A stretch of 64,000 nucleotides of DNA from Flectonema sp. DT1601 (taxonomy: Eukaryota). Below are positions 30,880-64,000 of this stretch, piece by piece. Both the position numbers and the translations under genes were made by a program. The DNA lies in assembly GCA_964019425.1 (NCBI GenBank), contig OZ025788.1, forward strand, positions 1,488,001 through 1,552,000, in the 5' to 3' direction. Within the stretch, counting starts at the first letter, position 1. Each line of letters begins with the position of its first letter. The notes below the pieces were generated by a model. The model saw only the letters and a program-made list of their open reading frames with translations, did no database searches and was not told the origin of the DNA.

Positions 30880-31370
30880 CCCGCAAACCTGCAAACCAAC
30901 ACTCAGACTGGGAACTGCACGAAAGAGAACAGGAATGATACTTAAACAACGTTTAACGTAGATCAATGAAAAGGTAAATATTATAAGAGTATTTTGCCTA
31001 ACAGCGCAATACAGCTTCACGTGGTCGGCCTGGGTTCAAACCCGCCCCGCCCCGGTTGGGTAACTGCATATCACCTTCGGAGTTGTCGAAGTGTCTCTTC
31101 CAACACTCCTGTCTCCATGTGTCCAATTTCAAGGACGCGTGACCATTTCTTTTTTTCTGTTGCCGCTCTTCTTACATCCTCAGGCGGGCCCGCAAACCCG
31201 CAAACCCGCAAACCCGCAAACCCGCAAACCCGCAAACCCGCAAACCAACACTCAGACTGGGAACTGCACAAAAGGCAAGTGAAGTACGATATACTCTTAT
31301 AATATTTAACTTTTCGTTGATCTACGTTAAACGTTGTTTAAGTATTATTTCTGTTCTCTTGTCTTTATTT
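30880..31370. repeat. Rearranged satellite border: short CCCGCAAA tracts (30880-30897, 31189-31246), a duplicated element end, and a ~70-bp inverted duplication
   Basis: GCAAACC-AACACTCAGACTGGGAACTGCAC occurs twice. 30923-30992 is the reverse complement of ~31291-31360 with about 4 mismatches. Confidence 0.8.
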
Positions 31371-31778
31371 CAGAATTATCATTTCACTGTTTCTCTTATC
31401 ATTATTTTATTGTACTCATTTATTCAGGCTAGGAAGGGTCTTAACGCAAAGCGTTTTCCCACCCGCCCTACCCCTGTAACGGTGCCAACCTTTCCCCCGG
31501 CCGATTTTAGGCCGTGGTCGAACATGCAATTGTACAAGCATGCGGTGCCGTTTTCCCATTACCCCTTCGTGAATGAGTTGCTTCGTGTTAACTTGGTTCT
31601 CCTTTGTCTTTCTCATCATCATTTTCTTCAGCTGAGAAAATGGGAAAGCTAAGACGACATGAGGCTTATGATGCTAGTATCTTGTTATGTGGTTAATTCG
31701 TGTGATTGTTTTTATCAGACTCTCCTTTATGACTTTTCCTTTTCAACAGTACTTCACTGAGAATGCCGAGCGGTTCCC
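31245..31778 (+). mobile_element. Putative short non-autonomous YR-type element inserted in the CCCGCAAA repeat
   Basis: Left junction GCAAACC|AACACTCAGACTGGGAAC and right junction GGTTCCCC-GCAAA reproduce the 2-C / 4-C junctions of the full YR element at 52020-56874; no credible ORF. Confidence 0.6.
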
Positions 31779-31811
31779 CGCAAACCCGCAAACCCGCAAA
31801 CCCGCAAACCC
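31777..31811. repeat. Short (CCCGCAAA)n tract
   Basis: About 4 units visible. Confidence 0.95.
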
Positions 31812-32186
31812 TAGAATTCATTCAGGTAATTTTCCACCAAGCTTAGCACCGGAAAGAAATAATCAAAGGAATCAGACAGAAAAGTGTATGATTCCGAAGT
31901 TGGAAAAATGAACAAAACAACAGACATTTTTTATATATTCTTTAGCCTTCTATTTTTCAAAAAGAAATTCTTTATACAGCTCGATCACTTCTTTCTCTCA
32001 CACTCACGTTTTCGAAGCCCACCCTCCTCACCCCTCCACCCCGTGGTGGAGCTGAGTCCAACGAAAACGGACTTCAGTTACCCCGCCGCAGCGAGCCACC
32101 TTGAACCAGGGTATTCTTGCAATCGCGCGTTCTAGTGTAATCGCTTGTTATTGGTGCGTGTGTAGTTTTTAAGTTTTATTATTTCG

Positions 32187-32598
32187 AACCCGCAAACCCG
32201 CAAACCCGCAAACCCGCAAACCCGCAAACCCGCAAACCCGCAAACCCGCAAACCCGCAAACCCGCAAACCCGCAAACCCGCAAACCCGCAAACCCGCAAA
32301 CCCGCAAACCCGCAAACCCGCAAACCCGCAAACCCGCAAACCCGCAAACCCGCAAACCCGCAAACCCCGCAAACCCGCAAACCCCGCAAACCCGCAAACC
32401 CGCAAACCCGCAAACCCGCAAACCCGCAAACCCGCAAACCCGCAAACCCGCAAACCCCGCAAACCCGCAAACCCCGCAAACCCGCAAACCCGCAAACCCG
32501 CAAACCCGCAAACCCGCAAACCCGCAAACCCGCAAACCCGCAAACCCGCAAACCCGCAAACCCGCAAACCCGCAAACCCGCAAACCCGCAAACCCGCA
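32187..32598. repeat. (CCCGCAAA)n satellite tract with a few 9-bp CCCCGCAAA variants
   Basis: Directly visible, about 51 units. Confidence 0.98.
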
Positions 32599-32617
32599 CT
32601 AGAGATACCCCTTCCAG

Positions 32618-32632
32618 GCTCGCGTTGCTCGC
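32618..32632 (-). other. Helitron 3' subterminal hairpin GCGAGCAACGCGAGC
   Basis: Lies 15 nt before the terminal CTAG; GC-AAC-GC core; identical in the second element. Confidence 0.7.
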
Positions 32633-32729
32633 ACACAATTTTTTTTTTTTAAATCTTTCTGAACAAACCTTATTTTTACAACCAAGTCACGTCTGTTTTT
32701 ATTCCCTGTGTCTAGCTAGGTACCCGTCC

Positions 32730-32798
32730 AGGATTCAAAATTGGACTTAACTTTACGCTCGCTTCGCTCGCGTTAAGTTAAGTCCAATTTTGTATCCT
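32730..32798. repeat. Inverted repeat with ~29-bp arms near the Helitron 3' end
   Basis: AGGATTCAAAATTGGACTTAACTTTACGC / GCGTTAAGTTAAGTCCAATTTTGTATCCT, 2 mismatches; shorter version at 45566-45597. Confidence 0.9.
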
Positions 32799-33296
32799 CA
32801 TCGCAATCTTTTTATTATTCATTTATTACTTTTCTGTCCCAACGGGACGACAAATGAAAAATGTCCTCCCTTAGCTGAAAATGCACACTGCACCCTGTTT
32901 TATCAAGTCATATCACAGAATGGACGAAGATAAGGTTATTCTTTATTTATTGTTTTTGTTTTTCTGAAAGATAGTTATATTAATATGCTAGCACGAAAAC
33001 GACGGCTAGGTTTATGATGATTGGATATGTGGCTTAGGTTATCTGTTTGTTTCATTTGGAAATATTTTATAAACCATTCACAACAGGTTTATCGAACTTG
33101 TATCTGCAATGTGTGCGACCCTGGGATGGAAATATAGGAATTTAGTTATATTAATAAGGTTATCGTTCATTACATTATTTTCAATAAAATAGATATGTGA
33201 GAAGAACTACGGGATGGGGAATAACAGTGGTGAAAAAAGCATCAGCCGATTGCGGGTTTATAGTGCTTCTGTATGTATGTGGGGTGGGTGACTATT

Positions 33297-33882
33297 CTAC
33301 TTCGGCCTCTTGATGCCTTGGGTTCTTCCAGTGGTTGATCTTTGTTTCGCCTGCTGAGGCTTTCACCGCCAGCGCTTCCTTCTGTCGAAAATGGTAGCTC
33401 CTCGAGCGGCCACCCTGCAGGCTATCGAGACATCCCGAGCCGCAGCCTTTACCTCCTGCTGACGTTTCTCAACATCAGTTGCCGCTTCCCCTTCGTCGAA
33501 GAGCAGCCGCCACCTTCCGAGCAGACTCTGCCATTTGTTCCTTCTGCTGACGTTCCCTCAATAGGATCTCCACCTCCAATGGTTCCTTCCTTTCGGGCTG
33601 GTGTGTGTGTGTGTTGTCGTACTCCTTCAGCTCACGTTCCTTTGCCATGACTGCCGAAGCTTGGAGCTTCAACGCTTCTCTTCGACGAAGGGTTGCTTCT
33701 CGAGCAGCCTTTCGAGCTGCTATCTGGAGTTCCTTCTGCTTTAGTAAGTTCACCTCCAAGGCTTCTTTCCTTTGAAGGGCACATTCTCGAGCCTCTATCT
33801 CCTTCAATCGCTTCTGCTCTGGCTCCTTCGCCATGACTGCGTGCCACCGCCGGCGTCTTGCTTCCAAGGTGTCCTTAACCAT
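33297..33882 (-). pseudogene. Diverged, frameshifted duplicate of the RepHel C-terminal coiled-coil region
   Basis: LEARRRRWHAVMAKE...RKEALEVNLLKQKEL...KVAAALRRR matches the RepHel C-terminus (34196-34820). Nucleotide similarity continues to the same stop context (CTACTTCGGCCTCTTGATG). Confidence 0.8.
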
Positions 33883-34195
33883 GATGTTGTTACTGTTGTG
33901 GAATTATATTTTAGATTTGAGTTTAATAATGTTATTCAAAACAGGTTAATACATAAACCCAAAAAATGTGCCGCGTGATCGCGTATTGAACCCTCAGTCA
34001 CAGGAATGCAAGAGCGATTAGTCGACGACCATATTATTATTATTTATTTATTTATTTATTTATTTATTGTGTGTTGCTATCCTAGGATGAAAATAAGGGT
34101 TTATTGTGCATTAACTTAATTTCCGTCCTGCTCAGTGTTCCAAAACGAAAATGTGAACTTCTGTATGTGCTAGTTTTGCGGGTGACTGTTGTTGT

Positions 34196-35831
34196 CTACT
34201 TCGGCCTCTTGATGCGCTGGGATTTTGCGGGGGGTGCTTTCCGCTTCATTGCAGCTGGCTTCTGGGACGAAGTTCCAGGCTTTTCTTTCGCCTGCTTTCG
34301 GGAGGTTCTCACCGCCAGGGCTTCTTTTCGTCGAATGGCAGCTTCTCGAGCGGCCACCCTGCGGGCTATGGAAGCATCCCGAGCCGCAGCCTTTACCACC
34401 TGCTGACGTTTCTCAACATCAGTTGCCGCTTCCCTTCGTCGAAGAGCAGCCGCCACCTTCTGAGCAGACTCTGCCTTTTGTTCCTTCTGCTGACGTTCCC
34501 TCAACAGGATCTCCACCTCCAATGCTTCCTTCCTTCGGGCTGGCGTGTCGAACTCCTTCAGCTCACGTTCCTTCGCCATGACCGGCGGCGAAGCTTCCAA
34601 CTTCAACGTTTCTCTTCGACGAAGGGTTGCTTCTCGAGCAGCCTTTCGGGCCGCTATCTCGAGTTCCTTCTGCTTGAGTAACTTCACCTCCAAGGCTTCT
34701 TTCCTTCGAAGGGCAGATTCTCGAGCCTCAACCTCCAGAGCCAGTGACCTCATTCGCTTCTGCTCTCGCTCCTTCGCCGTGACTGCATGCCACCGCTGGC
34801 GTCTTGCTTCCAAGGGGTCGTTAGCCGTCAGGCGGTATGTATCACGCAACCTGATGAGTGCTTCCTCTGGACTGCGGGACCGCAGGTTGACGTAATGCAG
34901 ACCTAGTGCATGGATGATTTCCCCCAGCTGATTCCAAATGAAGATAGTTCCGTTGGTGTGGTGGGTTAGAAGAAATGAGAAATGGTCGTGAACCTCATTT
35001 TGGTCTTCCGTAAAGAAACACGACTCCGGGAAGAACCCTCCAACTCGTAGCCCGTCTTGCTGTAGTACGACGATTTTTATATGTAGCAGCACCGCGGCTG
35101 CGTCGATTGCCTCGTTCGTCAGCCAAGACCCGTCGGTTCGATATTGCTCGACCCAGGATGAGTCACTACCTGCGCGGACCATCTCTTCGCAGATCTGGTG
35201 TCGGAGGTCTCCATGGGAAGGGATATCCGCATTCGCATACCAGTGGACATCACGGAGCGCATTCTGTATGGCATATAGAAGGCAGTTACCGTCCGATCCT
35301 GTTCGCCGCATCTCGAGCCCAAAGAGATGCCACATGACGTAGGCGTATTCTTGTGATGGGTGAGTGAATGTTGGATCCAAACGGGTTGCTGAACCGAGGT
35401 AAGCCTGAGGATCGAAGGCAGGAAGTTCCATCCTCTTCCGTTTTCGAGCAACTTCTGAAGGCGCACGCGTCGAAGAAGAAGATGGATCCTTTTTTTGTGC
35501 CGCGATCTTGTGCCACACGGTGGACAGCGATTCGAGAGATGTTTTTACTCCGAAGAAAGGTTTCAAATTGATGTAGTGGGTGTGCAGGCCCCCTGCCGTT
35601 TCGCAACTCCACAGGAAGATGACCCTGGAACTCTGCAACAACAGCCATCTGAGTTCTTCATGCACGGTTCTCTGTGAAGCCCCCTCCTCCTCCTTCTTCT
35701 CTGGGAAGGTAACGATCTGACTGAGGCCGTCTTGTTTCAGCAGCACAATGTCTAACTGCAGGATTCTGGAAGCCGCGTCGACTGCTCGATCCGTGAGCCA
35801 TGCTGATCTCCAACTGCTGTGTTCGGAATCC

Positions 35832-35862
<31 letters not shown>

Positions 35863-38800
35863 GGCAACCGTCGTCACTTCTCTGCTGCTGCTCATCTAAG
35901 AGTTGTATCTGCTGACCGATATACTTGCGGAAGCTTTCCGGATCCGAAGTGATGGAAGCAGTATCCACAAACCACGCGGAATCACCGAGCGCAGTGCAGA
36001 TGGCGGAATGCAGACAATCACAGTCAGCCTTGGTGTTTCCGAGGGCCAAGCCGAAGAGGCTTTGCAGCACATGGTCGTAGACATGCATCGGATACGACCG
36101 CTCGCTGTCGAGGCGCACTCCAGGAGCGAGGTATATCTCAGGGCTGAGCCACTTCGGCAGGCTAAGCCCCGCTGTCTGGTCGGGTTCGAAGGTGTCGGGT
36201 ATTCTGGTCCACTCTTCAACTTGCTGTGAAACGCCGACGAACTGCTGCTCTTTGATGTTTTGTTGCTCTTCCACGACAGCGTCCGGGTCTTGCGGTGCGT
36301 CCGTCCACTCGTGGTACTCTTCGACCCCAGCTGGCCTTGCAACGTTGCCCCTCGCTGCCTTCGAAGCTTCTTCAGCGACTCTGCGGATCTCCGCTCGGGA
36401 TCGCGGACTGAGGGGATGGCCGCGGATTGCCTGCTCGACGCTGCTAATGACGTTCAGCTGGACGGGATTCCTGAACGACTCCCTCTTAGCCGGCTGCGTT
36501 GCGACGCGAATATCAGCAGCGTGTCGGACGCGCGTAAATGCCACGTAGGCTTGTCCGTGTGCGAAGAACTCCGATTTCGTCAAGTCAAGCCCAAGACGAT
36601 CAACGGTTTGCCCCTGGAGCTTATTCACTGTGAGGGCAAACGCATTACGCACGGGAAACTGAACACGCTCCATCTCGAAGGGGACTTTTCCTGGTTCCGG
36701 TGTCAGCTTGATCCTAGGGATCAGCACGAACTCCCTTGTCCTGCGGTCCTGGCAATAGAGTACTTTCCGGTGACAGCGGATGACCACCAGCCTCGACCCG
36801 TTGCAGATGCGTGCACCGCTTCCGGAGTAAATGTTCCGAGTGCAGATGATCGGAGAGTTCACCTTGAGCAGCAGCTTTTGGGGAGGCAGCCCTGCGGTGA
36901 CTTGCGACATGTAGTCCTCGGTGGCCAAGTCAGGCGAGGCAGTCTCGGTGCAGCGATTGGCGGCGATGAATTCGAACACCCTGCCTGGGAAGGTATTGAG
37001 GCAAGCAGCGTTTAGCTCGTCGACGTCGCTGTTGAGTAGGGAGGCAATTGCAACGTTCTCGTCGATGATGCCTTCGTCCAGCTGGGGATACACGAAATTG
37101 ATGAGGTCTTGCCGTACGTAGATGCGTTCTCCGGAGTTGCCAATCCTGCCGTACAATCGTGTCCAGCCGTTGATGTCACAATTAACACCCTTCCCGAGGC
37201 CCTGAGTCCACTTCAAGTAACCCTCATCCTGAATCCGCATGCTCTTTGTCAACTCCACCGCCTGAAACCCGTCACCACCCCAGAGATACGATGTATGAAG
37301 CGAAGCATTTAAAGCAGGCATGTCGCCATCTGCCCTCACAATCGGAAGTGTCTGCTGTAAGTCGGCGATGATAATCATGGGGCACCCTCCGAACCGCTTG
37401 TTCCACTTGTGTGAACGGATGCGACGCATGGTCCTGTCGAGCAACTCAAAATGGCGGCGGTCCGTCATTCCTGCTTCGTCCCATAAGATGCAACTGCACT
37501 CCTGCAGCGCCCTCCACTGCTTGCCGTATTCTGTGATGTTGAGCACCTGCAGTTGTTGGTTGTCGTTCAGGACGATGGGGAGTCGGAAGCGCGAGTGAGC
37601 GGTTGTTCCAAGCTCGAGCAAGGTAGCGGCAATTCCCGTCGAAGCAACCGCAATCACACTCCGTGGTACACAGATTCCCTGTTCTCCGCGGGTACTCCTC
37701 GCCCAATTCAGGAAGCAGTTGGCAAGAAATGTTTTACCGGTTCCAGCTGGGGCCTGCACAAAGATGGTGTCACCTGCGCCGCCTCCCTCTGCCTTGCGAA
37801 CCGCGTTCTGCAGCATCTCCAACGCCGCAGATTGGTCGCGGTTGCTGCTTCGGATGAGTACCGCACTCTTTTCGTAGGCAGAGTAGTATTCCTCGGCCTT
37901 CCTCCTAGCAAGCATGACCCCCATTGGGATGGACACTCCTCCGGTCGGCAGCGGCAGCGGAAGCTCTTCGTCGAGATTAACCATCGGCAACCCATCCTCG
38001 TTGCTGAGTAGCTGGTGGATGTCGAGAATGCACTCGCGCTCGCGCTCGGGTGGGATGAATCCAACACCGTGAACCTCCTCTTGCAGCTGCCGCTCCTGCG
38101 CGCTGAGACGCTCGTCGTAGCACATCTTGCCTCTGAATCGCTCCCAAGCGCCCTTGATGCAGTTGAGCATCCCGCAGCTGATCAGAACGGCGAAAAGGTA
38201 CCGAACATACATCGAGGAGTAGCACTTCGCTGCTTCGAGCGCCGACTCCGCCTCCTTGTCGTCGAGAAAGAGCCCAAGTGCTGTCGCAGCAGCCAGCATC
38301 GTGTCGTGAACCACGCCGTCGACCGTCATGGCATCATCGAAGCTCTTCAGGCCTGGGCGCGCGTTGAGGATCAGCCGCAGGCAATACGCTTCGGTGTCAC
38401 GGGGTGATACCCAAAAAATCCTGCCTATTTGAACGTCGGTCCAGCGCCTACCTGTTGTGTCCTTGCGCCGGAAGCGAGATTCTTCGCGCGAATACTCATA
38501 TCCTTGGCGCAGCTTCCACTCACCCTTGACGTAGCTAAAATAGGTGGGGAAGTCGCGGTACAACAGGGTGCGACAACCGTCGGATTGGTTCTTGTCGTTG
38601 AAATTGAACCAAGCCAGCAGTGTGGTGCTTTTGGACGCGACCTTCTCGGCCAACTCATCCACGGTGTCGTCGCTGTTGAAGAAGATGGTCTCCTTCCCCT
38701 TGACGTGGATGTCAAGCCGTTTGACAGCTGGGACGTTGGAGTGTTGAGGCATGCTCAGAAGGCGGCCCGCAGCCTCGCAAGAACCCATGACCCTTGCATT

Positions 38801-41800
38801 CTGGTACTGGGTCACTTCGTCTTGCACTTCCCTCGCACCTTCCTGCTTCAAGACAAAGCTCAGTCCAGGCTCTGCCTTCGTAATGTACTTGAATAAGTAC
38901 CCGACGCAGTCGCCCATGCCGTTGGTTAACTCGACGTTGATGTGAGTTTGGTACCTCATCATCAAGCCGGCGTTGTAGGGAACCACCCATTCGTTCCCCT
39001 GTCCTCTGTGAGTGGTGACGCCTGTCCGACGTCGGCGAATGGTCGAGAACCCGGACACACCTATGTGCGATATGTCCGTGAATGGTTTCGGGAAGTTGTT
39101 CTTGCAGTAGAGTTTCCCATCCTTCCCTTGCTTGTGGCACGGGCAGATCACGCCCTGGCGAGAGCAGTCGTTGTGCACCATCTTCGAAGCAATGAGGCTG
39201 TAGAGGGCTGGCTGCCTTACCGGGTCGGGTAGTTCGGCATGGACCACCGAGTCGATGTCCTCAGCTGCTGCTGGTGGATGCTTGTTCCAGGCGAGGAGGT
39301 GCATGTGCGGAAGTCCCCGCTGCTGATACTCGTAAACCCAGACAATGGCGTTGTTCTTGCCGAGAACCCCGCTTCGGATGTCTTCGCGCAGAGCACGTGC
39401 CTTGCCGTCCCAGACACGCATGATGAGCTCCGGTCGGTCGTTGGGTCTCTGGTTCAAAGCCTCCCCGCCTTCTCGCAAGATCTGCTGGATCTCCGGCCAC
39501 TGGGTGTTGCATGTCATGGTGACGAAGAAGGTTGGTTTGCCGTATTTCGCCATGATCGCAAGCGCGTCTTCCCGCAGCTCTCTCTTCCCGCGGGGTCCGC
39601 CTTTGAACGAAACCGGAAGAATGATGCGTCGGTTTTCGATTGCGGTGGCTGCCTCATTCTGCTGCACCGCCTGCCTGACGTCGCTGGCCGCCGCCTTCCT
39701 GCTGTGCCGAGCTCCAAAGGGTGATCGATACCAGTTGAGACGCAGATGCTCTGCACGTGCCGCCATGTCCAGTATGTACACCTGGGTCAACTTGCCAAGG
39801 CGCAGGAGCATGTTCTTTCCAGTCCTGAGAGGCCGTTCAAACATGTGAAATCCACCGTACTCCGTGGCACTCACGAAGGAGCGCCTGCTGTTATCAGTGT
39901 TTTCGGCAGCATAATCGCCATTGTAATCTACCTCACGGCCAGCGTCGCTGTTGTTGTTTCGGGGACGAAATCTCCTGTACTTGCCTAAACCCCAACCGCA
40001 GTGGAAGACACGCACTGCATCTTCCTGACCACCACCGCTGGCCTTCCACTCCCAAGACGGGGTGGGAAAGATCACGGGGTAACTCAGAATCTCGTACAAC
40101 GGATCTTTCTCATCAATGAACAGCTTCCGACTTCGTGGGGCGGGTACCGATGCCGAATCTCCAAAAAACAACGTGATCTTCCGATTGTCCCTCTTGATGG
40201 AGTCGTGGTCCAGGTCGAGGACGATCCTGATCTCGTCGAAGAACTCCTTCGAGGTGTGATCTTCTGCACGGGACGGCTGGTGGCGCTCAAGGTTTATGCT
40301 GATGGCTATATCTGTCGTTCTACGGTCCCCGTCCTGTTCCTTCGCCAGCGCTTTCTCAGCAGCATCGAGGCACTCTAGGAAGGGGTGCTGCCTGTTGCTG
40401 CTCCCTTTTCTGATGATGACTGCAAGGCGTTTTGCGAAGCCGTGCTCCGTCCCTAACTTGCGGATTTGCGAGTTTGCGTTGTCGAGGTCGCCAGCAATGT
40501 ACCAGCTTTGTCTCGGGTTGGTTTTGTCAATCACGGGATCGGTGATGTGATGTGTCCTGCCCTGAATGGAAACTGACTGGGGACCTGTTGGCTTGGATAG
40601 GCAGCTGCGACGCATCAGCGGAACAGCGAATGACAACCTGCTGTTGACAATGTGCGAGACGCTGCGAAACTTTGATGTCTTCAACATGTCCTCGACTTCG
40701 GGGTGGATGGAGATAAGGTCAAGCTTCGAGGCAGTCCCTGCCGCGCAACACCGTGATGAAGGCTCATAGCAATAGCGCTCAGCCCCGCACCATTCGCACA
40801 AAGTGGGGTCAAGCTGCAGTGGGTTGTACCGAAAATGTGGCAGTTCCGAAATTGGTGTGGGGGATTCGTTCACTTCATCAAGCGTGATGCAACATGACCC
40901 ATGCAACTTCCTTCTCCTTCGTCGGAATCTCCTAGGTCTCTTCCATCCTTCCTGGTCTCCCACTGCCAAGGCTGCCGTTCGTTCAACATCTATCTCCTTG
41001 TCCTGAATCTCCGATCGAACACAGCGCTCAAGGAGTCGCACCCTCTCAGGAATTAGCATCCCACAGATCTCAGCTGCTTCGCGCATTCTGAACACTTCCC
41101 TTGCACTGACAGCCATGTCGGCCTTTATCTGGGTGTTGAATCTTTCTTCCAACAGGCGACGTCCGATGGCAATCCACCAGCCAGTCAATGCACTGAACTT
41201 GGCAGCGATTCCTTGTTGCTGCCATGCACGTATTCCCTCCAGCGGGCGCACTGCTGTGGTGGTGGTGGTGGTGGTGGCTGGCGATGAAGTGTTCTTCCTT
41301 CTTGTCATCGAAGTGATGGCGACAACACCTGCAAGCAAGATGATTGTTGAAGCGGATGCTGTAGCTGAAAGACGGATGTGAGACTTGTACCGAACACCGT
41401 TGTTGCCATCGAATCGAAAGGGGTTCATGTAGCAGGCAAGTATGTGTTTACTAAGACCTCTTGGATCGAAGCTCCTTTCACAGTAACCACACTTCCTTTT
41501 ACAGGCCTTTTCATGTTCTTCCAGGGCTACCAATGTTCTGAGTGGCGATCCACAGTTCTTGCAGTGATTCTGCTGACCGAACTGGTTGCGAAGTGCAAGG
41601 GAAGCAACACATGGAGCATGCCTGCCTGCGACGGTGTCAGCCACCGCATGTTGCATCTGCTTCAAGATAGCTTCAATTTGCGAAAGGTGTGCACCTGATT
41701 TGAGGACGGTATCCACAATCACAGTAAGCCTGCCGATAAGCGCAGCACAGACATTCTTATCATTGTTGTTGTTGTTCATTCCTCCGGGCAGTTGTTGCAG

Positions 41801-53441: not shown

Positions 53442-56146
53442 AAAGAACGCAAGTGGTTGGGGACGGGCGCACCAGCCACGCGAAAGTTAAAATGGCGCCG
53501 AAATTACCAGAAAAGTCCATTGTCCGGGTTGCAACCGACTTTTCCTACTACCCAAGAGACCCAACCGGAGCTGCCTATTCTGACGAGGGAAATTTTAAAC
53601 CATCTTGGGAAGAAAGACCGAACTCGCTCTGCGCATACAGAGGACGGCGTCAGCGCGGAAGACGCTTCGAAGAAGCTGGCCGACGTGGTCGGGAAGATGT
53701 GGGCAGCGAGTACATCGGCGAAGAGACGAAACCTCTGGGCAAGACTCTTATCGTGGGCGGAAGTGAACAGCTTGCCAGTAAACGCGGAAACCGCTGTCTT
53801 ATTCGTCCTTGCCACGAGGGTGAAACCACAAGGGCTACTTCAGTATGCAAAGTCCCTATCAGCAATCATGAAGTGTCTGGGAATGGACAATCGACAGCTA
53901 CTAACTCTTGCCACCGCGCTACGAGCAGACGGCGCAGCTATTCCGACAAAGCAAGCACGGCCAATTACAAGGGAGGCTCTCATGGCCTGGGCGGAGTCAT
54001 CATCGGACGAACTATGGCTGGCAACAATGATCTGCTGGAAGACAGCCTCAAGATGGGGCGAGGTTCAGGCACTCACGTCGGAGCAATTCATTCGAGTGGA
54101 GAGGGAGGAAGTGATCATCGACTGGCTCAGCACGCCGAAGCTTCGATCAGCAAATCCATTCGTCCCGTCACGTTGGACTGTGATACGGGGGAGCATGACG
54201 GGAGAGATCTGGTTGCTTTTAAAGGACAAGATTCCATTCGGGGCACTCACAAACAGAACAACAGAAATGTTGGATCGGATGTGGGGAAGGGATCCGAACA
54301 TGAAGGGATTTACAGCACACTCGATAAAGCGCGGCGCAGCAACAGTACTTTACGAAAACCTTGCAAAGGGAGCGGACTTACCGGAGCACATTATCTCTCG
54401 GACCCTGAAGCATGCGGAGAAGGAGACAGGGATATCATCAACATCGCTGAGGTACGGGGGTGCGCCAGCCGACATGGCAGTTGCTCTACAGACTTGGAAA
54501 GCCACCCAGCTCTTGTAAAACATGCACCGCATAGCATCTCGAGAAGGGGCCAGCGGACGAGGCTACCTGTCACAGCGGAAGAGAAGGCATCACCGCTTCA
54601 TGTTTCTTCTATAAAACTAATGAATGTTGACGGGCTTCGAGGGAGGCTGAACGACTCGGCAAGGGTGCGGTTTGATAGTGTCTGGGATATGGTATTCCCA
54701 AGGCAAACACCACCTTCGCGAAGCAGCACACACTCGAAACACTCAACTCTCCAGCCTAGCCATGCTGACGAACTGGTTAGTCGCTCTATCGCACGCCATG
54801 CTGAAGCAGGGGGGGTAATGCAAAATGTGCCGTTCACTGTTGTTGAGGAGAAGGCTGAGGGCTTACGCCAGCGATTCATACTCTGGACAAAGGGACTGAA
54901 CGACTGGGGCGAGGGTACTGGGTACCAAGCCGCCGTTCCACTGAAGCACATCTCAGCTTATCTTGGTGCTGTCAAGCAGGAGTGCGCCACAACTCGTGAC
55001 TTCAGAACAGGATTCTTTGCGATTGAAATTCCAACATATGCAAGACATCTCTTCAGGTTCCAAGATAGCTCTGGAAGATGGTTCGAGATGCAACGACTAC
55101 CGATGGGACATATTGGCGCCCCGGAACTAATGCACACGCTCGCCGCATCCGCTGCAGGACATCCCGACTACGTTAGAAGTGACATTGCCGTGCACTCCGT
55201 TGGTATTGACATCTTTATTGACAATATAAGGTACACAGGGGAGCGGAAGCATATTCTCGATGCGACGACAGTGCTTGATGAGACTGCTTCGGGTATGTCT
55301 ATTACATGGAAGGCTTCCGACTCACATACTGCTGCGACAACCTACACGTTCCTCGGGGCGGACTTTAATCATGAGCTTCGTACGGTAAGGGCTTCTGAGA
55401 AAATTCGACGCAAGATAAGTGGTGTGAATCTTTCCAACTGCACAGCTTCACAGCTCGAGTCACTCGGAGGAAGACTTGTTCACGCAAGCGCAATTGCAGG
55501 CGTTCCGATGGGTCAGTTCTGGTATGCAGTGAAGTTCCTTCGAAGGCTTGTCAACGGTCTCAATAGGGGGACCCGCCGTCCAGAAGCGAATGTTAACATC
55601 CCGCCGTCAGTTACCGCACAACTCTCTGCATGGTGCACTGCGGCTCTCAAGCAACAGACGATCTTCCAGCATGATAGCAGAAATTCAGTTACAACGTTCA
55701 TCGACGCTTCTATGACGGGATGGGGCGGCGTTATTATTGATGACTCAACAGCTGAAATTATTATCCTCGGCGGCTCCTGGACGCCATCAGAAGCACGCCT
55801 CCACATCAACGTTCTCGAATCTCTTGCATTATCTAAGACGCTTTCTCAGCTTCCCGTAAGATATAAGGGTGGCACCCTATCACTCTGGATCGATAACACT
55901 TCTGTTGTTGGTGCACTTCGAAAGAAACTCTGTGCTAGGTCAGCAGACTTAAACAAGAATGTCGTTCTTTCTTCTATAATATTCAAGAACCTCCAGCTCG
56001 ATGTTAACATCGGATGGGTCGCGTCAGCTAACAATCCAGCTGACATCCCATCACGCCTCCCAGAACACAAAATCTCATCGGCATCAACACTGCATACTGT
56101 CGAACTTGCGCTGCGGAGGTTTATTACAAGCGACGGGGTGGAGTGA
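53438..56146 (+). CDS. Reverse transcriptase / RNase H ORF; its N-terminal ~360 aa overlap the YR gene in another frame
   Basis: RT motifs RQRFIL, DFRTGFFAI, RLPMG, FIDN, FLG; RNase H motifs FIDAS, HINVLE, WIDNT, NPADIPSR. Confidence 0.92.
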   Translation: MKRTQVVGDGRTSHAKVKMAPKLPEKSIVRVATDFSYYPRDPTGAAYSDEGNFKPSWEERPNSLCAYRGRRQRGRRFEEAGRRGREDVGSEYIGEETKPLGKTLIVGGSEQLASKRGNRCLIRPCHEGETTRATSVCKVPISNHEVSGNGQSTATNSCHRATSRRRSYSDKASTANYKGGSHGLGGVIIGRTMAGNNDLLEDSLKMGRGSGTHVGAIHSSGEGGSDHRLAQHAEASISKSIRPVTLDCDTGEHDGRDLVAFKGQDSIRGTHKQNNRNVGSDVGKGSEHEGIYSTLDKARRSNSTLRKPCKGSGLTGAHYLSDPEACGEGDRDIINIAEVRGCASRHGSCSTDLESHPALVKHAPHSISRRGQRTRLPVTAEEKASPLHVSSIKLMNVDGLRGRLNDSARVRFDSVWDMVFPRQTPPSRSSTHSKHSTLQPSHADELVSRSIARHAEAGGVMQNVPFTVVEEKAEGLRQRFILWTKGLNDWGEGTGYQAAVPLKHISAYLGAVKQECATTRDFRTGFFAIEIPTYARHLFRFQDSSGRWFEMQRLPMGHIGAPELMHTLAASAAGHPDYVRSDIAVHSVGIDIFIDNIRYTGERKHILDATTVLDETASGMSITWKASDSHTAATTYTFLGADFNHELRTVRASEKIRRKISGVNLSNCTASQLESLGGRLVHASAIAGVPMGQFWYAVKFLRRLVNGLNRGTRRPEANVNIPPSVTAQLSAWCTAALKQQTIFQHDSRNSVTTFIDASMTGWGGVIIDDSTAEIIILGGSWTPSEARLHINVLESLALSKTLSQLPVRYKGGTLSLWIDNTSVVGALRKKLCARSADLNKNVVLSSIIFKNLQLDVNIGWVASANNPADIPSRLPEHKISSASTLHTVELALRRFITSDGVE
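53457..54518 (+). CDS. Tyrosine recombinase (start uncertain)
   Basis: Catalytic-type motifs WKTASRWGEV (R), TPK (K), HSIKRG, LKH, SLRY (Y). Confidence 0.88.
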   Translation: MGTGAPATRKLKWRRNYQKSPLSGLQPTFPTTQETQPELPILTREILNHLGKKDRTRSAHTEDGVSAEDASKKLADVVGKMWAASTSAKRRNLWARLLSWAEVNSLPVNAETAVLFVLATRVKPQGLLQYAKSLSAIMKCLGMDNRQLLTLATALRADGAAIPTKQARPITREALMAWAESSSDELWLATMICWKTASRWGEVQALTSEQFIRVEREEVIIDWLSTPKLRSANPFVPSRWTVIRGSMTGEIWLLLKDKIPFGALTNRTTEMLDRMWGRDPNMKGFTAHSIKRGAATVLYENLAKGADLPEHIISRTLKHAEKETGISSTSLRYGGAPADMAVALQTWKATQLL

Positions 56147-56874
56147 GGCAGGCCAACCGGTGCCGCTACTCGGACTGCTCACTCACATGGCTTTCTGCCA
56201 CGCTCAGCCGATAGCGACCACCACCTGCGGTCTACTTACCTCACTTCGTGAAAAGAATTTGTGAACTCTTATAGTTTAATTTCTCTATCCTTCCTAGTGA
56301 TAGACGAGCTACTTAGTTTTATCCATAGTTTCATGTTTTACTATTACATTTCTTCTACTCTTATCTTTCCTTCCTTTCTTTCAGGCTGTACAGGGGTTAT
56401 GGTTCCCTAACTACAGCGGGGAACCGGAACTTCGAAGTACAGCCGTCAGCATCATTTTCTCGCCATCGTTTGGCGCATCGATACATCCTATCAGAATATA
56501 TTTCATTTTATTTAGAGCTGTTTAACTCATGTTTACCTTTCCTTTTCTTTCAGCCGACGGGTTCGACCTATTAAACACTTAAACAAAAAGAAAACCCACC
56601 CACCGACCCCCTCGGCAGGCCAACCGGTGCCGCTACTCGGACTGCTCACTCACATGGCTTTCTGCCACGCTCAGCCGATAGCGACCACCACCTGCGGTCT
56701 ACTTACCTCACTTCGTGAAAAGAATTTGTGAACTCTTATAGTTTAATTTCTCTATCCTTCCTAGTGATAGACGAGCTACTTAGTTTTATCCATAGTTTCA
56801 TGTTTTACTATTACATTTCTTCTACTCTTATCTTTCCTTCCTTTCTTTCAGGCTGTACAGGGGTTATGGTTCCC
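56147..56874 (+). repeat. 3' repeat block B1 (56147-56407), A2 (56406-56594), 19-nt C-rich spacer, B2 (56614-56874)
   Basis: Direct sequence comparison; B copies are 261 bp and identical by eye. Confidence 0.95.
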
Positions 56875-59800
56875 CGCAAACCCGCAAACCCGCAAACCCG
56901 CAAACCCGCAAACCCGCAAACCCACAAACCCGCAAACCCGCAAACCCGCAAACCCGCAAACCCGCAAACCCGCAAACCCGCAAACCCGCAAACCCGCAAA
57001 CCCGCAAACCCGCAAACCCGCAAACCCGCAAACCCGCAAACCCGCAAACCCGCAAACCCGCAAACCCGCAAACCCGCAAACCCGCAAACCCGCAAACCCG
57101 CAAACCCGCAAACCCGCAAACCCGCAAACCCGCAAACCCGCAAACCCGCAAACCCGCAAACCCGCAAACCCGCAAACCCGCAAACCCGCAAACCCGCAAA
57201 CCCGCAAACCCGCAAACCCGCAAACCCGCAAACCCGCAAACCCGCAAACCCGCAAACCCGCAAACCCGCAAACCCGCAAACCCGCAAACCCGCAAACCCG
57301 CAAACCCGCAAACCCGCAAACCCGCAAACCCGCAAACCCGCAAACCCGCAAACCCGCAAACCCGCAAACCCGCAAACCCGCAAACCCGCAAACCCGCAAA
57401 CCCGCAAACCCGCAAACCCGCAAACCCGCAAACCCGCAAACCCGCAAACCCGCAAACCCGCAAACCCGCAAACCCGCAAACCCGCAAACCCGCAAACCCG
57501 CAAACCCGCAAACCCGCAAACCCGCAAACCCGCAAACCCGCAAACCCGCAAACCCGCAAACCCGCAAACCCGCAAACCCGCAAACCCGCAAACCCGCAAA
57601 CCCGCAAACCCGCAAACCCGCAAACCCGCAAACCCGCAAACCCGCAAACCCGCAAACCCGCAAACCCGCAAACCCGCAAACCCGCAAACCCGCAAACCCG
57701 CAAACCCGCAAACCCGCAAACCCGCAAACCCGCAAACCCGCAAACCCGCAAACCCGCAAACCCGCAAACCCGCAAACCCGCAAACCCGCAAACCCGCAAA
57801 CCCGCAAACCCGCAAACCCGCAAACCCGCAAACCCGCAAACCCGCAAACCCGCAAACCCGCAAACCCGCAAACCCGCAAACCCGCAAACCCGCAAACCCG
57901 CAAACCCGCAAACCCGCAAACCCGCAAACCCGCAAACCCGCAAACCCGCAAACCCGCAAACCCGCAAACCCGCAAACCCGCAAACCCGCAAACCCGCAAA
58001 CCCGCAAACCCGCAAACCCGCAAACCCGCAAACCCGCAAACCCGCAAACCCGCAAACCCGCAAACCCGCAAACCCGCAAACCCGCAAACCCGCAAACCCG
58101 CAAACCCGCAAACCCGCAAACCCGCAAACCCGCAAACCCGCAAACCCGCAAACCCGCAAACCCGCAAACCCGCAAACCCGCAAACCCGCAAACCCGCAAA
58201 CCCGCAAACCCGCAAACCCGCAAACCCGCAAACCCGCAAACCCGCAAACCCGCAAACCCGCAAACCCGCAAACCCGCAAACCCGCAAACCCGCAAACCCG
58301 CAAACCCGCAAACCCGCAAACCCGCAAACCCGCAAACCCGCAAACCCGCAAACCCGCAAACCCGCAAACCCGCAAACCCGCAAACCCGCAAACCCGCAAA
58401 CCCGCAAACCCGCAAACCCGCAAACCCGCAAACCCGCAAACCCGCAAACCCGCAAACCCGCAAACCCGCAAACCCGCAAACCCGCAAACCCGCAAACCCG
58501 CAAACCCGCAAACCCGCAAACCCGCAAACCCGCAAACCCGCAAACCCGCAAACCCGCAAACCCGCAAACCCGCAAACCCGCAAACCCGCAAACCCGCAAA
58601 CCCGCAAACCCGCAAACCCGCAAACCCGCAAACCCGCAAACCCGCAAACCCGCAAACCCGCAAACCCGCAAACCCGCAAACCCGCAAACCCGCAAACCCG
58701 CAAACCCGCAAACCCGCAAACCCGCAAACCCGCAAACCCGCAAACCCGCAAACCCGCAAACCCGCAAACCCGCAAACCCGCAAACCCGCAAACCCGCAAA
58801 CCCGCAAACCCGCAAACCCGCAAACCCGCAAACCCGCAAACCCGCAAACCCGCAAACCCGCAAACCCGCAAACCCGCAAACCCGCAAACCCGCAAACCCG
58901 CAAACCCGCAAACCCGCAAACCCGCAAACCCGCAAACCCGCAAACCCGCAAACCCGCAAACCCGCAAACCCGCAAACCCGCAAACCCGCAAACCCGCAAA
59001 CCCGCAAACCCGCAAACCCGCAAACCCGCAAACCCGCAAACCCGCAAACCCGCAAACCCGCAAACCCGCAAACCCGCAAACCCGCAAACCCGCAAACCCG
59101 CAAACCCGCAAACCCGCAAACCCGCAAACCCGCAAACCCGCAAACCCGCAAACCCGCAAACCCGCAAACCCGCAAACCCGCAAACCCGCAAACCCGCAAA
59201 CCCGCAAACCCGCAAACCCGCAAACCCGCAAACCCGCAAACCCGCAAACCCGCAAACCCGCAAACCCGCAAACCCGCAAACCCGCAAACCCGCAAACCCG
59301 CAAACCCGCAAACCCGCAAACCCGCAAACCCGCAAACCCGCAAACCCGCAAACCCGCAAACCCGCAAACCCGCAAACCCGCAAACCCGCAAACCCGCAAA
59401 CCCGCAAACCCGCAAACCCGCAAACCCGCAAACCCGCAAACCCGCAAACCCGCAAACCCGCAAACCCGCAAACCCGCAAACCCGCAAACCCGCAAACCCG
59501 CAAACCCGCAAACCCGCAAACCCGCAAACCCGCAAACCCGCAAACCCGCAAACCCGCAAACCCGCAAACCCGCAAACCCGCAAACCCGCAAACCCGCAAA
59601 CCCGCAAACCCGCAAACCCGCAAACCCGCAAACCCGCAAACCCGCAAACCCGCAAACCCGCAAACCCGCAAACCCGCAAACCCGCAAACCCGCAAACCCG
59701 CAAACCCGCAAACCCGCAAACCCGCAAACCCGCAAACCCGCAAACCCGCAAACCCGCAAACCCGCAAACCCGCAAACCCGCAAACCCGCAAACCCGCAAA

Positions 59801-62800
59801 CCCGCAAACCCGCAAACCCGCAAACCCGCAAACCCGCAAACCCGCAAACCCGCAAACCCGCAAACCCGCAAACCCGCAAACCCGCAAACCCGCAAACCCG
59901 CAAACCCGCAAACCCGCAAACCCGCAAACCCGCAAACCCGCAAACCCGCAAACCCGCAAACCCGCAAACCCGCAAACCCGCAAACCCGCAAACCCGCAAA
60001 CCCGCAAACCCGCAAACCCGCAAACCCGCAAACCCGCAAACCCGCAAACCCGCAAACCCGCAAACCCGCAAACCCGCAAACCCGCAAACCCGCAAACCCG
60101 CAAACCCGCAAACCCGCAAACCCGCAAACCCGCAAACCCGCAAACCCGCAAACCCGCAAACCCGCAAACCCGCAAACCCGCAAACCCGCAAACCCGCAAA
60201 CCCGCAAACCCGCAAACCCGCAAACCCGCAAACCCGCAAACCCGCAAACCCGCAAACCCGCAAACCCGCAAACCCGCAAACCCGCAAACCCGCAAACCCG
60301 CAAACCCGCAAACCCGCAAACCCGCAAACCCGCAAACCCGCAAACCCGCAAACCCGCAAACCCGCAAACCCGCAAACCCGCAAACCCGCAAACCCGCAAA
60401 CCCGCAAACCCGCAAACCCGCAAACCCGCAAACCCGCAAACCCGCAAACCCGCAAACCCGCAAACCCGCAAACCCGCAAACCCGCAAACCCGCAAACCCG
60501 CAAACCCGCAAACCCGCAAACCCGCAAACCCGCAAACCCGCAAACCCGCAAACCCGCAAACCCGCAAACCCGCAAACCCGCAAACCCGCAAACCCGCAAA
60601 CCCGCAAACCCGCAAACCCGCAAACCCGCAAACCCGCAAACCCGCAAACCCGCAAACCCGCAAACCCGCAAACCCGCAAACCCGCAAACCCGCAAACCCG
60701 CAAACCCGCAAACCCGCAAACCCGCAAACCCGCAAACCCGCAAACCCGCAAACCCGCAAACCCGCAAACCCGCAAACCCGCAAACCCGCAAACCCGCAAA
60801 CCCGCAAACCCGCAAACCCGCAAACCCGCAAACCCGCAAACCCGCAAACCCGCAAACCCGCAAACCCGCAAACCCGCAAACCCGCAAACCCGCAAACCCG
60901 CAAACCCGCAAACCCGCAAACCCGCAAACCCGCAAACCCGCAAACCCGCAAACCCGCAAACCCGCAAACCCGCAAACCCGCAAACCCGCAAACCCGCAAA
61001 CCCGCAAACCCGCAAACCCGCAAACCCGCAAACCCGCAAACCCGCAAACCCGCAAACCCGCAAACCCGCAAACCCGCAAACCCGCAAACCCGCAAACCCG
61101 CAAACCCGCAAACCCGCAAACCCGCAAACCCGCAAACCCGCAAACCCGCAAACCCGCAAACCCGCAAACCCGCAAACCCGCAAACCCGCAAACCCGCAAA
61201 CCCGCAAACCCGCAAACCCGCAAACCCGCAAACCCGCAAACCCGCAAACCCGCAAACCCGCAAACCCGCAAACCCGCAAACCCGCAAACCCGCAAACCCG
61301 CAAACCCGCAAACCCGCAAACCCGCAAACCCGCAAACCCGCAAACCCGCAAACCCGCAAACCCGCAAACCCGCAAACCCGCAAACCCGCAAACCCGCAAA
61401 CCCGCAAACCCGCAAACCCGCAAACCCGCAAACCCGCAAACCCGCAAACCCGCAAACCCGCAAACCCGCAAACCCGCAAACCCGCAAACCCGCAAACCCG
61501 CAAACCCGCAAACCCGCAAACCCGCAAACCCGCAAACCCGCAAACCCGCAAACCCGCAAACCCGCAAACCCGCAAACCCGCAAACCCGCAAACCCGCAAA
61601 CCCGCAAACCCGCAAACCCGCAAACCCGCAAACCCGCAAACCCGCAAACCCGCAAACCCGCAAACCCGCAAACCCGCAAACCCGCAAACCCGCAAACCCG
61701 CAAACCCGCAAACCCGCAAACCCGCAAACCCGCAAACCCGCAAACCCGCAAACCCGCAAACCCGCAAACCCGCAAACCCGCAAACCCGCAAACCCGCAAA
61801 CCCGCAAACCCGCAAACCCGCAAACCCGCAAACCCGCAAACCCGCAAACCCGCAAACCCGCAAACCCGCAAACCCGCAAACCCGCAAACCCGCAAACCCG
61901 CAAACCCGCAAACCCGCAAACCCGCAAACCCGCAAACCCGCAAACCCGCAAACCCGCAAACCCGCAAACCCGCAAACCCGCAAACCCGCAAACCCGCAAA
62001 CCCGCAAACCCGCAAACCCGCAAACCCGCAAACCCGCAAACCCGCAAACCCGCAAACCCGCAAACCCGCAAACCCGCAAACCCGCAAACCCGCAAACCCG
62101 CAAACCCGCAAACCCGCAAACCCGCAAACCCGCAAACCCGCAAACCCGCAAACCCGCAAACCCGCAAACCCGCAAACCCGCAAACCCGCAAACCCGCAAA
62201 CCCGCAAACCCGCAAACCCGCAAACCCGCAAACCCGCAAACCCGCAAACCCGCAAACCCGCAAACCCGCAAACCCGCAAACCCGCAAACCCGCAAACCCG
62301 CAAACCCGCAAACCCGCAAACCCGCAAACCCGCAAACCCGCAAACCCGCAAACCCGCAAACCCGCAAACCCGCAAACCCGCAAACCCGCAAACCCGCAAA
62401 CCCGCAAACCCGCAAACCCGCAAACCCGCAAACCCGCAAACCCGCAAACCCGCAAACCCGCAAACCCGCAAACCCGCAAACCCGCAAACCCGCAAACCCG
62501 CAAACCCGCAAACCCGCAAACCCGCAAACCCGCAAACCCGCAAACCCGCAAACCCGCAAACCCGCAAACCCGCAAACCCGCAAACCCGCAAACCCGCAAA
62601 CCCGCAAACCCGCAAACCCGCAAACCCGCAAACCCGCAAACCCGCAAACCCGCAAACCCGCAAACCCGCAAACCCGCAAACCCGCAAACCCGCAAACCCG
62701 CAAACCCGCAAACCCGCAAACCCGCAAACCCGCAAACCCGCAAACCCGCAAACCCGCAAACCCGCAAACCCGCAAACCCGCAAACCCGCAAACCCGCAAA

Positions 62801-64000
62801 CCCGCAAACCCGCAAACCCGCAAACCCGCAAACCCGCAAACCCGCAAACCCGCAAACCCGCAAACCCGCAAACCCGCAAACCCGCAAACCCGCAAACCCG
62901 CAAACCCGCAAACCCGCAAACCCGCAAACCCGCAAACCCGCAAACCCGCAAACCCGCAAACCCGCAAACCCGCAAACCCGCAAACCCGCAAACCCGCAAA
63001 CCCGCAAACCCGCAAACCCGCAAACCCGCAAACCCGCAAACCCGCAAACCCGCAAACCCGCAAACCCGCAAACCCGCAAACCCGCAAACCCGCAAACCCG
63101 CAAACCCGCAAACCCGCAAACCCGCAAACCCGCAAACCCGCAAACCCGCAAACCCGCAAACCCGCAAACCCGCAAACCCGCAAACCCGCAAACCCGCAAA
63201 CCCGCAAACCCGCAAACCCGCAAACCCGCAAACCCGCAAACCCGCAAACCCGCAAACCCGCAAACCCGCAAACCCGCAAACCCGCAAACCCGCAAACCCG
63301 CAAACCCGCAAACCCGCAAACCCGCAAACCCGCAAACCCGCAAACCCGCAAACCCGCAAACCCGCAAACCCGCAAACCCGCAAACCCGCAAACCCGCAAA
63401 CCCGCAAACCCGCAAACCCGCAAACCCGCAAACCCGCAAACCCGCAAACCCGCAAACCCGCAAACCCGCAAACCCGCAAACCCGCAAACCCGCAAACCCG
63501 CAAACCCGCAAACCCGCAAACCCGCAAACCCGCAAACCCGCAAACCCGCAAACCCGCAAACCCGCAAACCCGCAAACCCGCAAACCCGCAAACCCGCAAA
63601 CCCGCAAACCCGCAAACCCGCAAACCCGCAAACCCGCAAACCCGCAAACCCGCAAACCCGCAAACCCGCAAACCCGCAAACCCGCAAACCCGCAAACCCG
63701 CAAACCCGCAAACCCGCAAACCCGCAAACCCGCAAACCCGCAAACCCGCAAACCCGCAAACCCGCAAACCCGCAAACCCGCAAACCCGCAAACCCGCAAA
63801 CCCGCAAACCCGCAAACCCGCAAACCCGCAAACCCGCAAACCCGCAAACCCGCAAACCCGCAAACCCGCAAACCCGCAAACCCGCAAACCCGCAAACCCG
63901 CAAACCCGCAAACCCGCAAACCCGCAAACCCGCAAACCCGCAAACCCGCAAACCCGCAAACCCGCAAACCCGCAAACCCGCAAACCCGCAAACCCGCAAA
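56873..64000. repeat. (CCCGCAAA)n satellite, >7.1 kb, running off the window
   Basis: Near-perfect 8-bp repeat; one CCCACAAA variant near 56921. Confidence 0.99.

What the first reader, a model, noticed from the sequence alone, without database searches (positions are those of the whole stretch)
30880..64000. One 8-bp satellite is a shared landing pad for two unrelated transposon classes, each with an autonomous and a short partner
Seen: at least four insertions interrupt the same-orientation CCCGCAAA array. The Helitrons sit in the AAA run and the YR-type elements in the CCC run, each class at a constant phase and strand. No such elements occur in the adjacent 30 kb of genes, which includes a 20-kb coding repeat. 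Inference: a safe-harbour niche that a HUH rolling-circle enzyme and a tyrosine recombinase target convergently, possibly through a host repeat-binding protein. The array could be centromeric or telomere-related chromatin.
Basis: partly seen in the sequence, partly recalled or inferred. Interest (0 to 1): 0.8.

Follow-up and report, generated by a model that had tools for sequence, protein, structure and literature searches.

The report
Repeat array shared by unrelated transposons
In a marine protist (a diplonemid), a near-perfect 8-letter DNA repeat is interrupted at fixed positions by two unrelated kinds of jumping gene, likely because each one's enzyme reads the repeat directly; such repeat-targeting is known from telomeres, but this array might mark the group's still-unmapped centromeres.

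Summary
Six insertions interrupt a one-orientation (CCCGCAAA)n array in a diplonemid genome. They are an intact 12.7-kb Helitron and its 3.9-kb ORF-less derivative (both at GGGTT^TGCGG, no duplication), an intact 4.85-kb VIPER/TATE-like tyrosine-recombinase retrotransposon, two short elements at the retrotransposon's phase, and one unassigned insert. Proteins from other contigs that read through the repeat show one exact and three compatible junctions at the same phases, so this is no local artefact.

The interpretation needs trimming. Fixed strand is forced by composition (T only on one strand, CC only on the other). Absence from the flanking 30 kb is not significant once genes are excluded (P 0.12-0.17). 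The short 'YR partner' shares only end motifs with the retrotransposon. Nothing points to a host tether; direct sequence read-out plus neutral retention suffices.

Precedents: TATE in Leishmania telomeres, Paramecium telomeric Helitrons, TRAS/SART. What the array is remains open. Its polarity is wrong for a canonical right-hand telomere; a centromere is plausible but untested. New variant of a known kind.

The parts
30880..30897 (+). Degenerate left edge of the CCCGCAAA array (two units, one variant)
30898..31190 (+). S1: decayed short element at the YR phase; shares a 28-bp head and an inverted 70-bp piece with S2
31191..31246 (+). Array, about 7 units
31247..31778 (+). S2: 532-bp non-coding element with YR-type ends (GGTTCCC at the right, GGGAAC arm near the left), no duplication; likely solo A-B module of a sister YR family
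   Evidence: same left junction in P0104 on another contig
31779..31811 (+). Array, about 4 units
31812..32186 (.). X: 375-bp insert of a third, unassigned type; fits a 5-bp AACCC duplication, or off-phase TC...CTAG ends
32187..32598 (+). Array, 51 units with four 9-bp variants
32599..45323 (-). Long Helitron, 12,725 bp, 5'-TC...CTAG-3', inserted at GGGTT^TGCGG without duplication
34196..42544 (-). Intact RepHel ORF (2,782 aa from first Met): Helitron_like_N, HUH motif RGLPHMH, YLFKY tyrosines, PIF1 helicase, C-terminal OTU-like domain, no AP endonuclease hit
   Evidence: (Helraiser 7lcc, E 2.9e-138)
45324..45427 (+). Array, 13 units between the two Helitrons
45428..49313 (-). Short ORF-less Helitron derivative, 3,886 bp, same termini and phase, with a 32-bp satellite of 49 copies (46690-48252)
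49314..52021 (+). Array, 338 perfect units
52022..56874 (+). Intact VIPER/TATE-like tyrosine-recombinase retrotransposon; split direct repeats A1 52022-52208 = A2 56408-56594 and B1 56147-56405 = B2 56614-56872 (both 100%); no duplication
52209..53441 (+). ORF1, gag-like by position only (410 aa, no Pfam hit)
53442..54518 (+). Tyrosine recombinase frame with R, HSIKR, H and Y signature residues
   Evidence: (PF00589, E 0.019, below cut-off)
53438..56146 (+). RT/RNase H ORF (902 aa) overlapping the recombinase frame; active-site motif FIDN
56875..64000 (+). Array, about 891 units, one variant, runs off the window edge

Best explanation
A near-perfect (CCCGCAAA)n array in a diplonemid genome is interrupted by an intact Helitron, an intact VIPER/TATE-like tyrosine-recombinase retrotransposon and short relatives of both classes at fixed phases, likely because each enzyme reads the repeat sequence directly and insertions there are likely tolerated, rather than through a shared host tether. 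Shown: element anatomy, intact enzymes, clean empty sites, phases. Inferred, Helitron: the HUH nuclease nicks GGGTT^T, a context that an inserted copy has at its own 5' end (GGGTT^TC) and that the target offers once per unit (GGGTT^TG), only on the G strand. Inferred, retrotransposon: the split repeats template a circular cDNA whose junction equals the internal B1|A2 sequence (inverted arms GGTTCCC and GGGAACC), and the recombinase crosses a 2-bp CC core of that junction with the CCC run, which exists only on the C strand. Inferred, short elements: the short Helitron is moved in trans; S2 and S1 are solo terminal modules of a sister YR family, comparable to SIRE. The array is most likely an internal block at the end of a co-oriented gene cluster.
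For: Empty sites are perfect for 4 of 6 inserts, and the dinucleotide inventory shows no AT on either strand, T only on the G strand and CC only on the C strand. The YR left junction has 2 C, the right 4 C and the internal junction 3 C, the same offset register in YR and S2, although an in-register CCC crossover was available. Split repeats are 100% identical and four near-identical RT ORFs (0-19 differences in 902 aa) lie on four contigs, so the family is young. Other contigs: of 15 proteins that read through the repeat (2, 13), 8 with exact arrays were kept. Of their 7 junctions entering the G-strand array, 1 is the S2 end at the identical phase (P0104), 3 are compatible with CTAG^TGCGGG (P0098, P0099, P0109; 2.5-3.7% each by chance given the phase), 1 is the P0099 element with one substitution (P0105), and 2 are unassigned. 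Precedent for direct repeat targeting.
Against: No genome, reads or DNA from other contigs could be examined. The outside junctions are read from amino acids, are biased toward ORFs that cross an array, and may come from several organisms; short runs of this repeat (up to 10 units) also occur in bacteria, so P0109 (about 8 units) may be unrelated. Copies outside arrays were never counted. Four outside junctions join the array to the inside of TE-like coding sequence (P0041, P0098, P0101, P0104), which clean targeted insertion does not explain. X does not fit either phase. The S2-to-YR module alignment (z 4.3) has a reverse-strand control almost as high (z 3.3).
Confidence: 0.68

Rival explanations
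1. The array is the core of a regional centromere, and the elements accumulate in its flanks through chromatin tethering or retention. This is compatible with direct sequence read-out setting the phase.
For: Homogeneous multi-kb core with degenerate, TE-laden edge at the end of a co-oriented gene cluster. T. cruzi centromeres are GC-rich, near strand switches and enriched 6-fold in VIPER (PMC13508446 passages). Arrays occur on several large contigs. Diplonemids have a CENP-A candidate, and the passages seen give no centromere DNA sequence (10.1101/2024.08.06.606595).
Against: No direct evidence. Number and position of blocks per chromosome are unknown, and the outside arrays seen are short (about 8-65 units).
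Confidence: 0.25
2. No real targeting: both families insert widely at short motifs and simply survive in the array, because insertions in the gene-dense neighbourhood are purged.
For: The window alone gives P 0.12-0.17 for all insertions lying in the array. Strand constancy is forced by composition.
Against: Several different element ends meet the array at the same phase on other contigs. The YR uses an offset register in 2 of 2 complete copies plus P0104.
Confidence: 0.2
3. TTTGCGGG is this lineage's telomerase repeat. The block is either telomere-derived but internal (fusion or insertion), or, more boldly, a true chromosome end whose C/A-rich strand runs to the 3' end.
For: The G strand is telomere-like and matches a G3 quadruplex pattern throughout. 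The gradient genes, broken gene, short degenerate runs, long perfect run resembles a subtelomere. The Helitron 5' end faces the long array, as in Paramecium. The YR site is compatible with TATE's GGG^TTA register.
Against: Read toward the long array the strand is C/A-rich, the reverse of a canonical right-hand telomere. Euglena telomerase makes TTAGGG (PMC3622300 passages). The outside arrays seen are flanked on both sides, except P0101, which starts inside one. Nothing beyond base 64000 is visible.
Confidence: 0.15
4. The block is an assembly artefact.
For: Long perfect repeats are often mis-sized or mis-joined, and no reads could be laid on it.
Against: Base-precise, mechanism-consistent junctions, intact ORFs, diverged Helitron copies, and an identical junction on another contig.
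Confidence: 0.04

Closest known systems
TATE (Leishmania braziliensis) and VIPER/SIRE (Trypanosoma cruzi), the VIPER-like YR retrotransposons (PMC6681497, sections 6, 7, 9 and passages; PMC12278014 passages)
   Same: A1-ORFs-B1-A2-B2 split repeats of similar size, gag-like ORF plus overlapping YR and RT/RH, no target duplication, euglenozoan host. TATE inserts at a constant position at the GGG run of a simple repeat; SIRE is the A2-B2 module, like S2.
   Different: Target here is (TTTGCGGG)n, not (TTAGGG)n, and is not shown to be telomeric. Phylogenetic placement next to TATE or VIPER could not be tested.
Paramecium Helitrons inserted in C4A2 telomeric repeats (PMC13085455, section 18 part 1 and passages)
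   Same: Helitrons flanked by a simple repeat on both sides, fixed strand, 5' end toward the long array, internal satellites, ORF-less derivatives.
   Different: Paramecium elements sit on the C-rich strand at proven chromosome ends and form their own clade. Here the element sits on the G-rich strand, has canonical TC/CTAG ends and a canonical-type Rep motif, and shares the array with a YR retrotransposon.
Canonical Helitrons (Helraiser, PDB 7lcc) versus Helentron/Helitron2 (PMC4067079 passages)
   Same: Rep motif RGLPH, no endonuclease hit and TC...CTAG ends as in canonical Helitrons. T^T target and an OTU-like domain as in Helentrons.
   Different: Mixed: canonical protein signature with a T^T rather than A^T target, no asymmetric inverted repeats, and only a weak hairpin next to the 3' end.
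TRAS and SART in Bombyx telomeric repeats (PMC10088271 passages)
   Same: Two families share one simple-repeat array in opposite orientations.
   Different: TRAS and SART both belong to the R1 retrotransposons. Here the two enzymes are unrelated (HUH nuclease and tyrosine recombinase).
Trypanosoma cruzi centromeres enriched in L1Tc and VIPER (PMC13508446 passages)
   Same: VIPER-like elements in a GC-rich, gene-poor block next to a gene cluster.
   Different: T. cruzi centromeres lack tandem repeats; centromere function here is untested.

Membership tests
VIPER-like YR retrotransposons (VIPER/TATE) | Split direct repeats A1 ... B1 A2 B2 | tested here: met
   A 187 bp and B 259 bp, both 100% identical
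VIPER-like YR retrotransposons (VIPER/TATE) | gag-like ORF followed by overlapping YR and RT/RH ORFs | tested here: met
   gag assigned by position only
VIPER-like YR retrotransposons (VIPER/TATE) | No target-site duplication | tested here: met
   empty site restores a perfect array
VIPER-like YR retrotransposons (VIPER/TATE) | RT clusters with named VIPER/TATE sequences | tested here: inconclusive
   tree of 161 RT domains places it with Diplonema sequences; none of 20 outside clusters looked up, of the 150 hits listed, carried an informative name
TATE in the strict sense | Insertion in (TTAGGG)n telomeric hexamers | tested here: not met
   no TTAGGG in the window and only four isolated CCCTAA; target is the 8-mer
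Canonical Helitron (HLE1) | RepHel with HUH, two tyrosines and PIF1 helicase; L in Rep motif 2; no AP endonuclease | tested here: met
   diagnostic from PMC4067079
Canonical Helitron (HLE1) | 5'-TC and CTRR-3' ends, no duplication | tested here: met
   2 of 2 copies
Canonical Helitron (HLE1) | Insertion between A and T | tested here: not met
   inserted T^T; the array has no AT dinucleotide
Canonical Helitron (HLE1) | [quoted passage not shown] | tested here: inconclusive
   last 60 nt fold at only -3.8 kcal/mol; a long hairpin lies about 130-200 nt inside
Helentron / Helitron2 | T^T target | tested here: met
Helentron / Helitron2 | Asymmetric terminal inverted repeats; S in Rep motif 2; AP endonuclease (Helentron) | tested here: not met
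   only one 8-mer match, starting about 50 nt from the 5' end; motif has L; no endonuclease family
SIRE-like solo module (S2) | Corresponds to the A2-B2 region of an autonomous element | tested here: inconclusive
   similar length, end motifs and layout; junction alignment 5 of 2000 shuffles, but whole-length test not clean; parent element not in the window
Canonical telomere | G-rich strand runs 5' to 3' away from the genes toward the end | tested here: not met
   C/A-rich strand runs from the genes into the array
Canonical telomere | Array terminates the chromosome and is made by telomerase | not testable with these tools
   no genome held; window ends inside the array
Centromeric satellite | One block per chromosome, bound by CENP-A/kinetochore | not testable with these tools
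   no genome or chromatin data

The most novel reading that the evidence does not exclude
(CCCGCAAA)n blocks are a structural chromosome element of diplonemids: the centromere core (about 0.25) or, more boldly, a telomere whose C/A-rich strand runs to the 3' end (about 0.05). At least three unrelated transposon classes (Helitron, YR retrotransposon, CRE-like element) have converged on it, which would give a direct sequence handle on diplonemid chromosome segregation.
Probability: 0.3. Interest if true: 0.8.

Novelty: new variant of a known kind. Interest (0 to 1): 0.52.

Why it matters
Repeat-targeting by YR retrotransposons (TATE) and by Helitrons (Paramecium) is each known from telomeres. 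Both classes sharing one array was not found in my 10 literature searches (listings only, open-access library). The intact Helitron pairs a canonical Rep signature with a T^T target, and both intact enzymes have base-defined targets, so their specificity can be assayed. Diplonemids are abundant marine protists with an apparently unusual kinetochore; I found no report of their centromere or telomere DNA in those searches. This array is a concrete candidate to test by CENP-A mapping.

Tried and rejected
No whole genome is held and no sequencing runs could be examined, so genome-wide enrichment and read support stay open.

The metagenome scan with the single RT protein gave 1 weak locus (E 2e-4) that did not match the element proteins on re-test. 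The viral-contig scans gave nothing. The prokaryote scan gave 65 short repeat loci, none with any match to the elements.

ARAGORN found no tRNA at default settings and only noise at lowered thresholds. Rfam gave two chance-level hits. The single-sequence AlphaFold model of the recombinase was unusable (pLDDT 38.9), so no fold search was run. Earlier scan notes were empty in four look-ups.

Passages of the D. japonicum genome paper and the supplements of the D. papillatum paper (7 files searched) gave no telomere or centromere repeat; a file not held as text could bear on this.

Seven of 15 repeat-reading proteins (P0102, P0103, P0106, P0107, P0108, P0110, P0111) were set aside as degenerate, variant or probably bacterial before counting junctions. 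Rejected: that S1/S2 are deletion derivatives of the YR element in this window; that the Helitron is a Helentron; that X is a Helitron at the family phase.
Full report
Host. The window is from a diplonemid. The disulfide-isomerase-like gene at 24633-25946 is 89% identical to a Flectonema neradi protein, and the informatively named relatives of the retrotransposon's RT are Diplonema papillatum proteins. The left 30.9 kb holds co-oriented ORFs on the + strand: a 99-bp coding repeat open from base 2 to 20332, a ubiquitin-like protein, a thioredoxin protein, an EXS protein and a frameshifted gene. No genome is held.

Observation. All array runs read CCCGCAAA on the + strand, from a degenerate start at 30880 to a 7.1-kb run at the window edge with 1 variant in 891 units. 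Six inserts interrupt it. Removing each restores a perfect array without duplication for 4 of 6: both Helitrons, the YR element and S2. S1 shares the YR phase but is decayed, and X needs a 5-bp duplication.

Helitrons. The long copy (32599-45323, minus strand) has TC and CTAG ends and one 2,782-aa ORF with Helitron_like_N, PIF1 and OTU-like domains. It matches Helraiser at E 2.9e-138 with HUH, tyrosine and Walker A motifs intact. Rep motif 2 reads RGLPH, the canonical-Helitron diagnostic (PMC4067079 passages), yet the target is T^T, and the array has no AT dinucleotide. The short copy (45428-49313) has 98 of 100 identical bases at the 5' end and 40 identical at the 3' end, is a mosaic of the long copy's non-coding blocks, and carries a 32-bp satellite. 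It is a real non-autonomous partner.

YR retrotransposon. 52022-56874 has A1, three ORFs, then B1, A2, B2, with both repeat pairs 100% identical. This is the VIPER/TATE layout (PMC6681497 sections 6-7). Recombinase signature residues are present; the RT motif is FIDN, and a pattern count over stored relatives gave 160 DN against 28 DD. Four RT ORFs with 0-19 differences lie on four contigs. The internal B1|A2 junction, which I infer equals the circle junction, has three C between inverted arms. The left junction has two C and the right four, which fits a crossover over a 2-bp CC core. That site is compatible with TATE's GGG^TTA position, but any crossover in the G run would be. Placement beside named TATE or VIPER was not possible: none of 20 outside clusters looked up, of 150 hits listed, had an informative name.

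Short YR-phase elements. S2 has no significant BLAST match to the YR element. It shares the GGTTCCC end, the GGGAAC arm, the register and the rough layout of the A2-B2 module. The junction alignment beat all but 5 of 2000 shuffles, partly because CCC is fixed by the target. The whole-length test was not clean (z 4.3; reverse-strand control 3.3). Related RT subfamilies at 51-58% identity lie on contigs of similar size. I read S2 as a SIRE-like solo module of a sister family; its mobility is not shown.

Beyond the window. I searched with translations of the repeat itself and obtained 15 proteins, keeping 8 with exact arrays. Of 7 junctions entering the G-strand array, P0104 reproduces the S2 end at the identical phase on a 515,557-bp contig. 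P0098, P0099 and P0109 are compatible with CTAG^TGCGGG (2.5-3.7% each by chance given the phase). P0105 is the P0099 element with one change, and two are unassigned. These ends differ from the window's Helitron, so several families may share the site. Caveats: amino-acid level only, possibly several organisms, and bacteria carry runs of up to 10 units.

Results that do not fit clean insertion. Four outside junctions join the array to TE-like coding interiors. P0041 is a YR RT cut off mid-ORF. P0104's far side matches a YR-region frame weakly (E 0.002). P0098 looks like a CRE-type endonuclease end and P0101 like an OTU fragment; both assignments rest on recalled motifs, and Pfam found nothing. 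Truncation, deletion or new array seeding could explain them.

How much needs explaining. Strand constancy follows from composition. Phase constancy has few alternatives: two T^T sites per unit, and two or three CC registers. The absence of elements from the left flank is weak evidence, since only 4,490 bp are outside ORFs (P 0.12-0.17). Direct read-out by each enzyme plus neutral retention is therefore sufficient, and nothing here calls for a host tether.

What the array is. The layout resembles a subtelomere, and the Helitron's 5' end faces the long array as in Paramecium (PMC13085455 section 18 part 1). But the strand running away from the genes is C/A-rich, the reverse of a canonical telomere, and Euglena telomerase makes TTAGGG (PMC3622300 passages). 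A homogeneous core with TE-laden edges also fits a regional centromere. VIPER is enriched at T. cruzi centromeres (PMC13508446 passages), and diplonemids have a CENP-A candidate (10.1101/2024.08.06.606595 passages). D. papillatum gene clusters are separated by TE-rich repeats, with TATE- and Helitron-like ORFs noted (PMC10161547 passages). A search for the 8-mer with 'telomer' listed 20 of 135 papers, none about this repeat by title or abstract start.

Verdict. A real, base-precise case of two unrelated transposon classes sharing one simple repeat. Each half has a telomeric precedent, and TRAS/SART precede the sharing (PMC10088271 passages). It is a new variant of a known kind, with upside if the array proves centromeric.

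Noticed in passing
window 43375-43455 (-) and 33970-34040 (-): Two tRNA-like cassettes flank the Helitron ORF, each with a B-box and a following T run; the first also has an A-box and a Leu(TAA)-like loop (read by eye). ARAGORN and Rfam did not call them. S1 has a similar B-box at 31033.
   Followed up: partly
window 33341-33880 versus 34282-34826: The 3' end of the Helitron ORF is duplicated downstream at 86% identity, and 33064-33222 recurs at 43545-43770 at 99%.
   Followed up: no
window 32730-32798: A long hairpin 130-200 bp inside the Helitron 3' end, partly kept in the short copy; it may replace the usual terminal hairpin.
   Followed up: partly
window 31812-32186: Insert X fits neither phase; 5-bp duplication or off-phase TC...CTAG ends; no significant match to the other elements.
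   Followed up: partly
window 56397-56411: The YR internal junction contains GGGGTTA and CCCTAAC, short matches to the TTAGGG telomere repeat. Possibly a relic of telomere targeting; S2 lacks it.
   Followed up: no
window 2-20332: An open frame of more than 6,700 codons made of a 33-aa Thr/Gln-rich repeat (199 copies), likely a giant surface protein.
   Followed up: no
window 29462-30800: A frameshifted gene directly abuts the array; no Pfam hit. Its motifs recall Crinkler/RHS-type NTPases (recalled, untested).
   Followed up: no
P0098 (762,624-bp contig): A CRE-like endonuclease C-terminus (recalled motifs) reads straight into the array, which then meets a Helitron-type end: a possible third class using the array.
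   Followed up: partly
P0102 (488,002-bp contig); P0103, P0106: A variant 8-mer array and degenerate arrays behind a shared upstream sequence; P0105 lies on a 1.3-Mb contig of the same length as that of RT relative P0020, hinting that the repeat exists in more than one genome.
   Followed up: no
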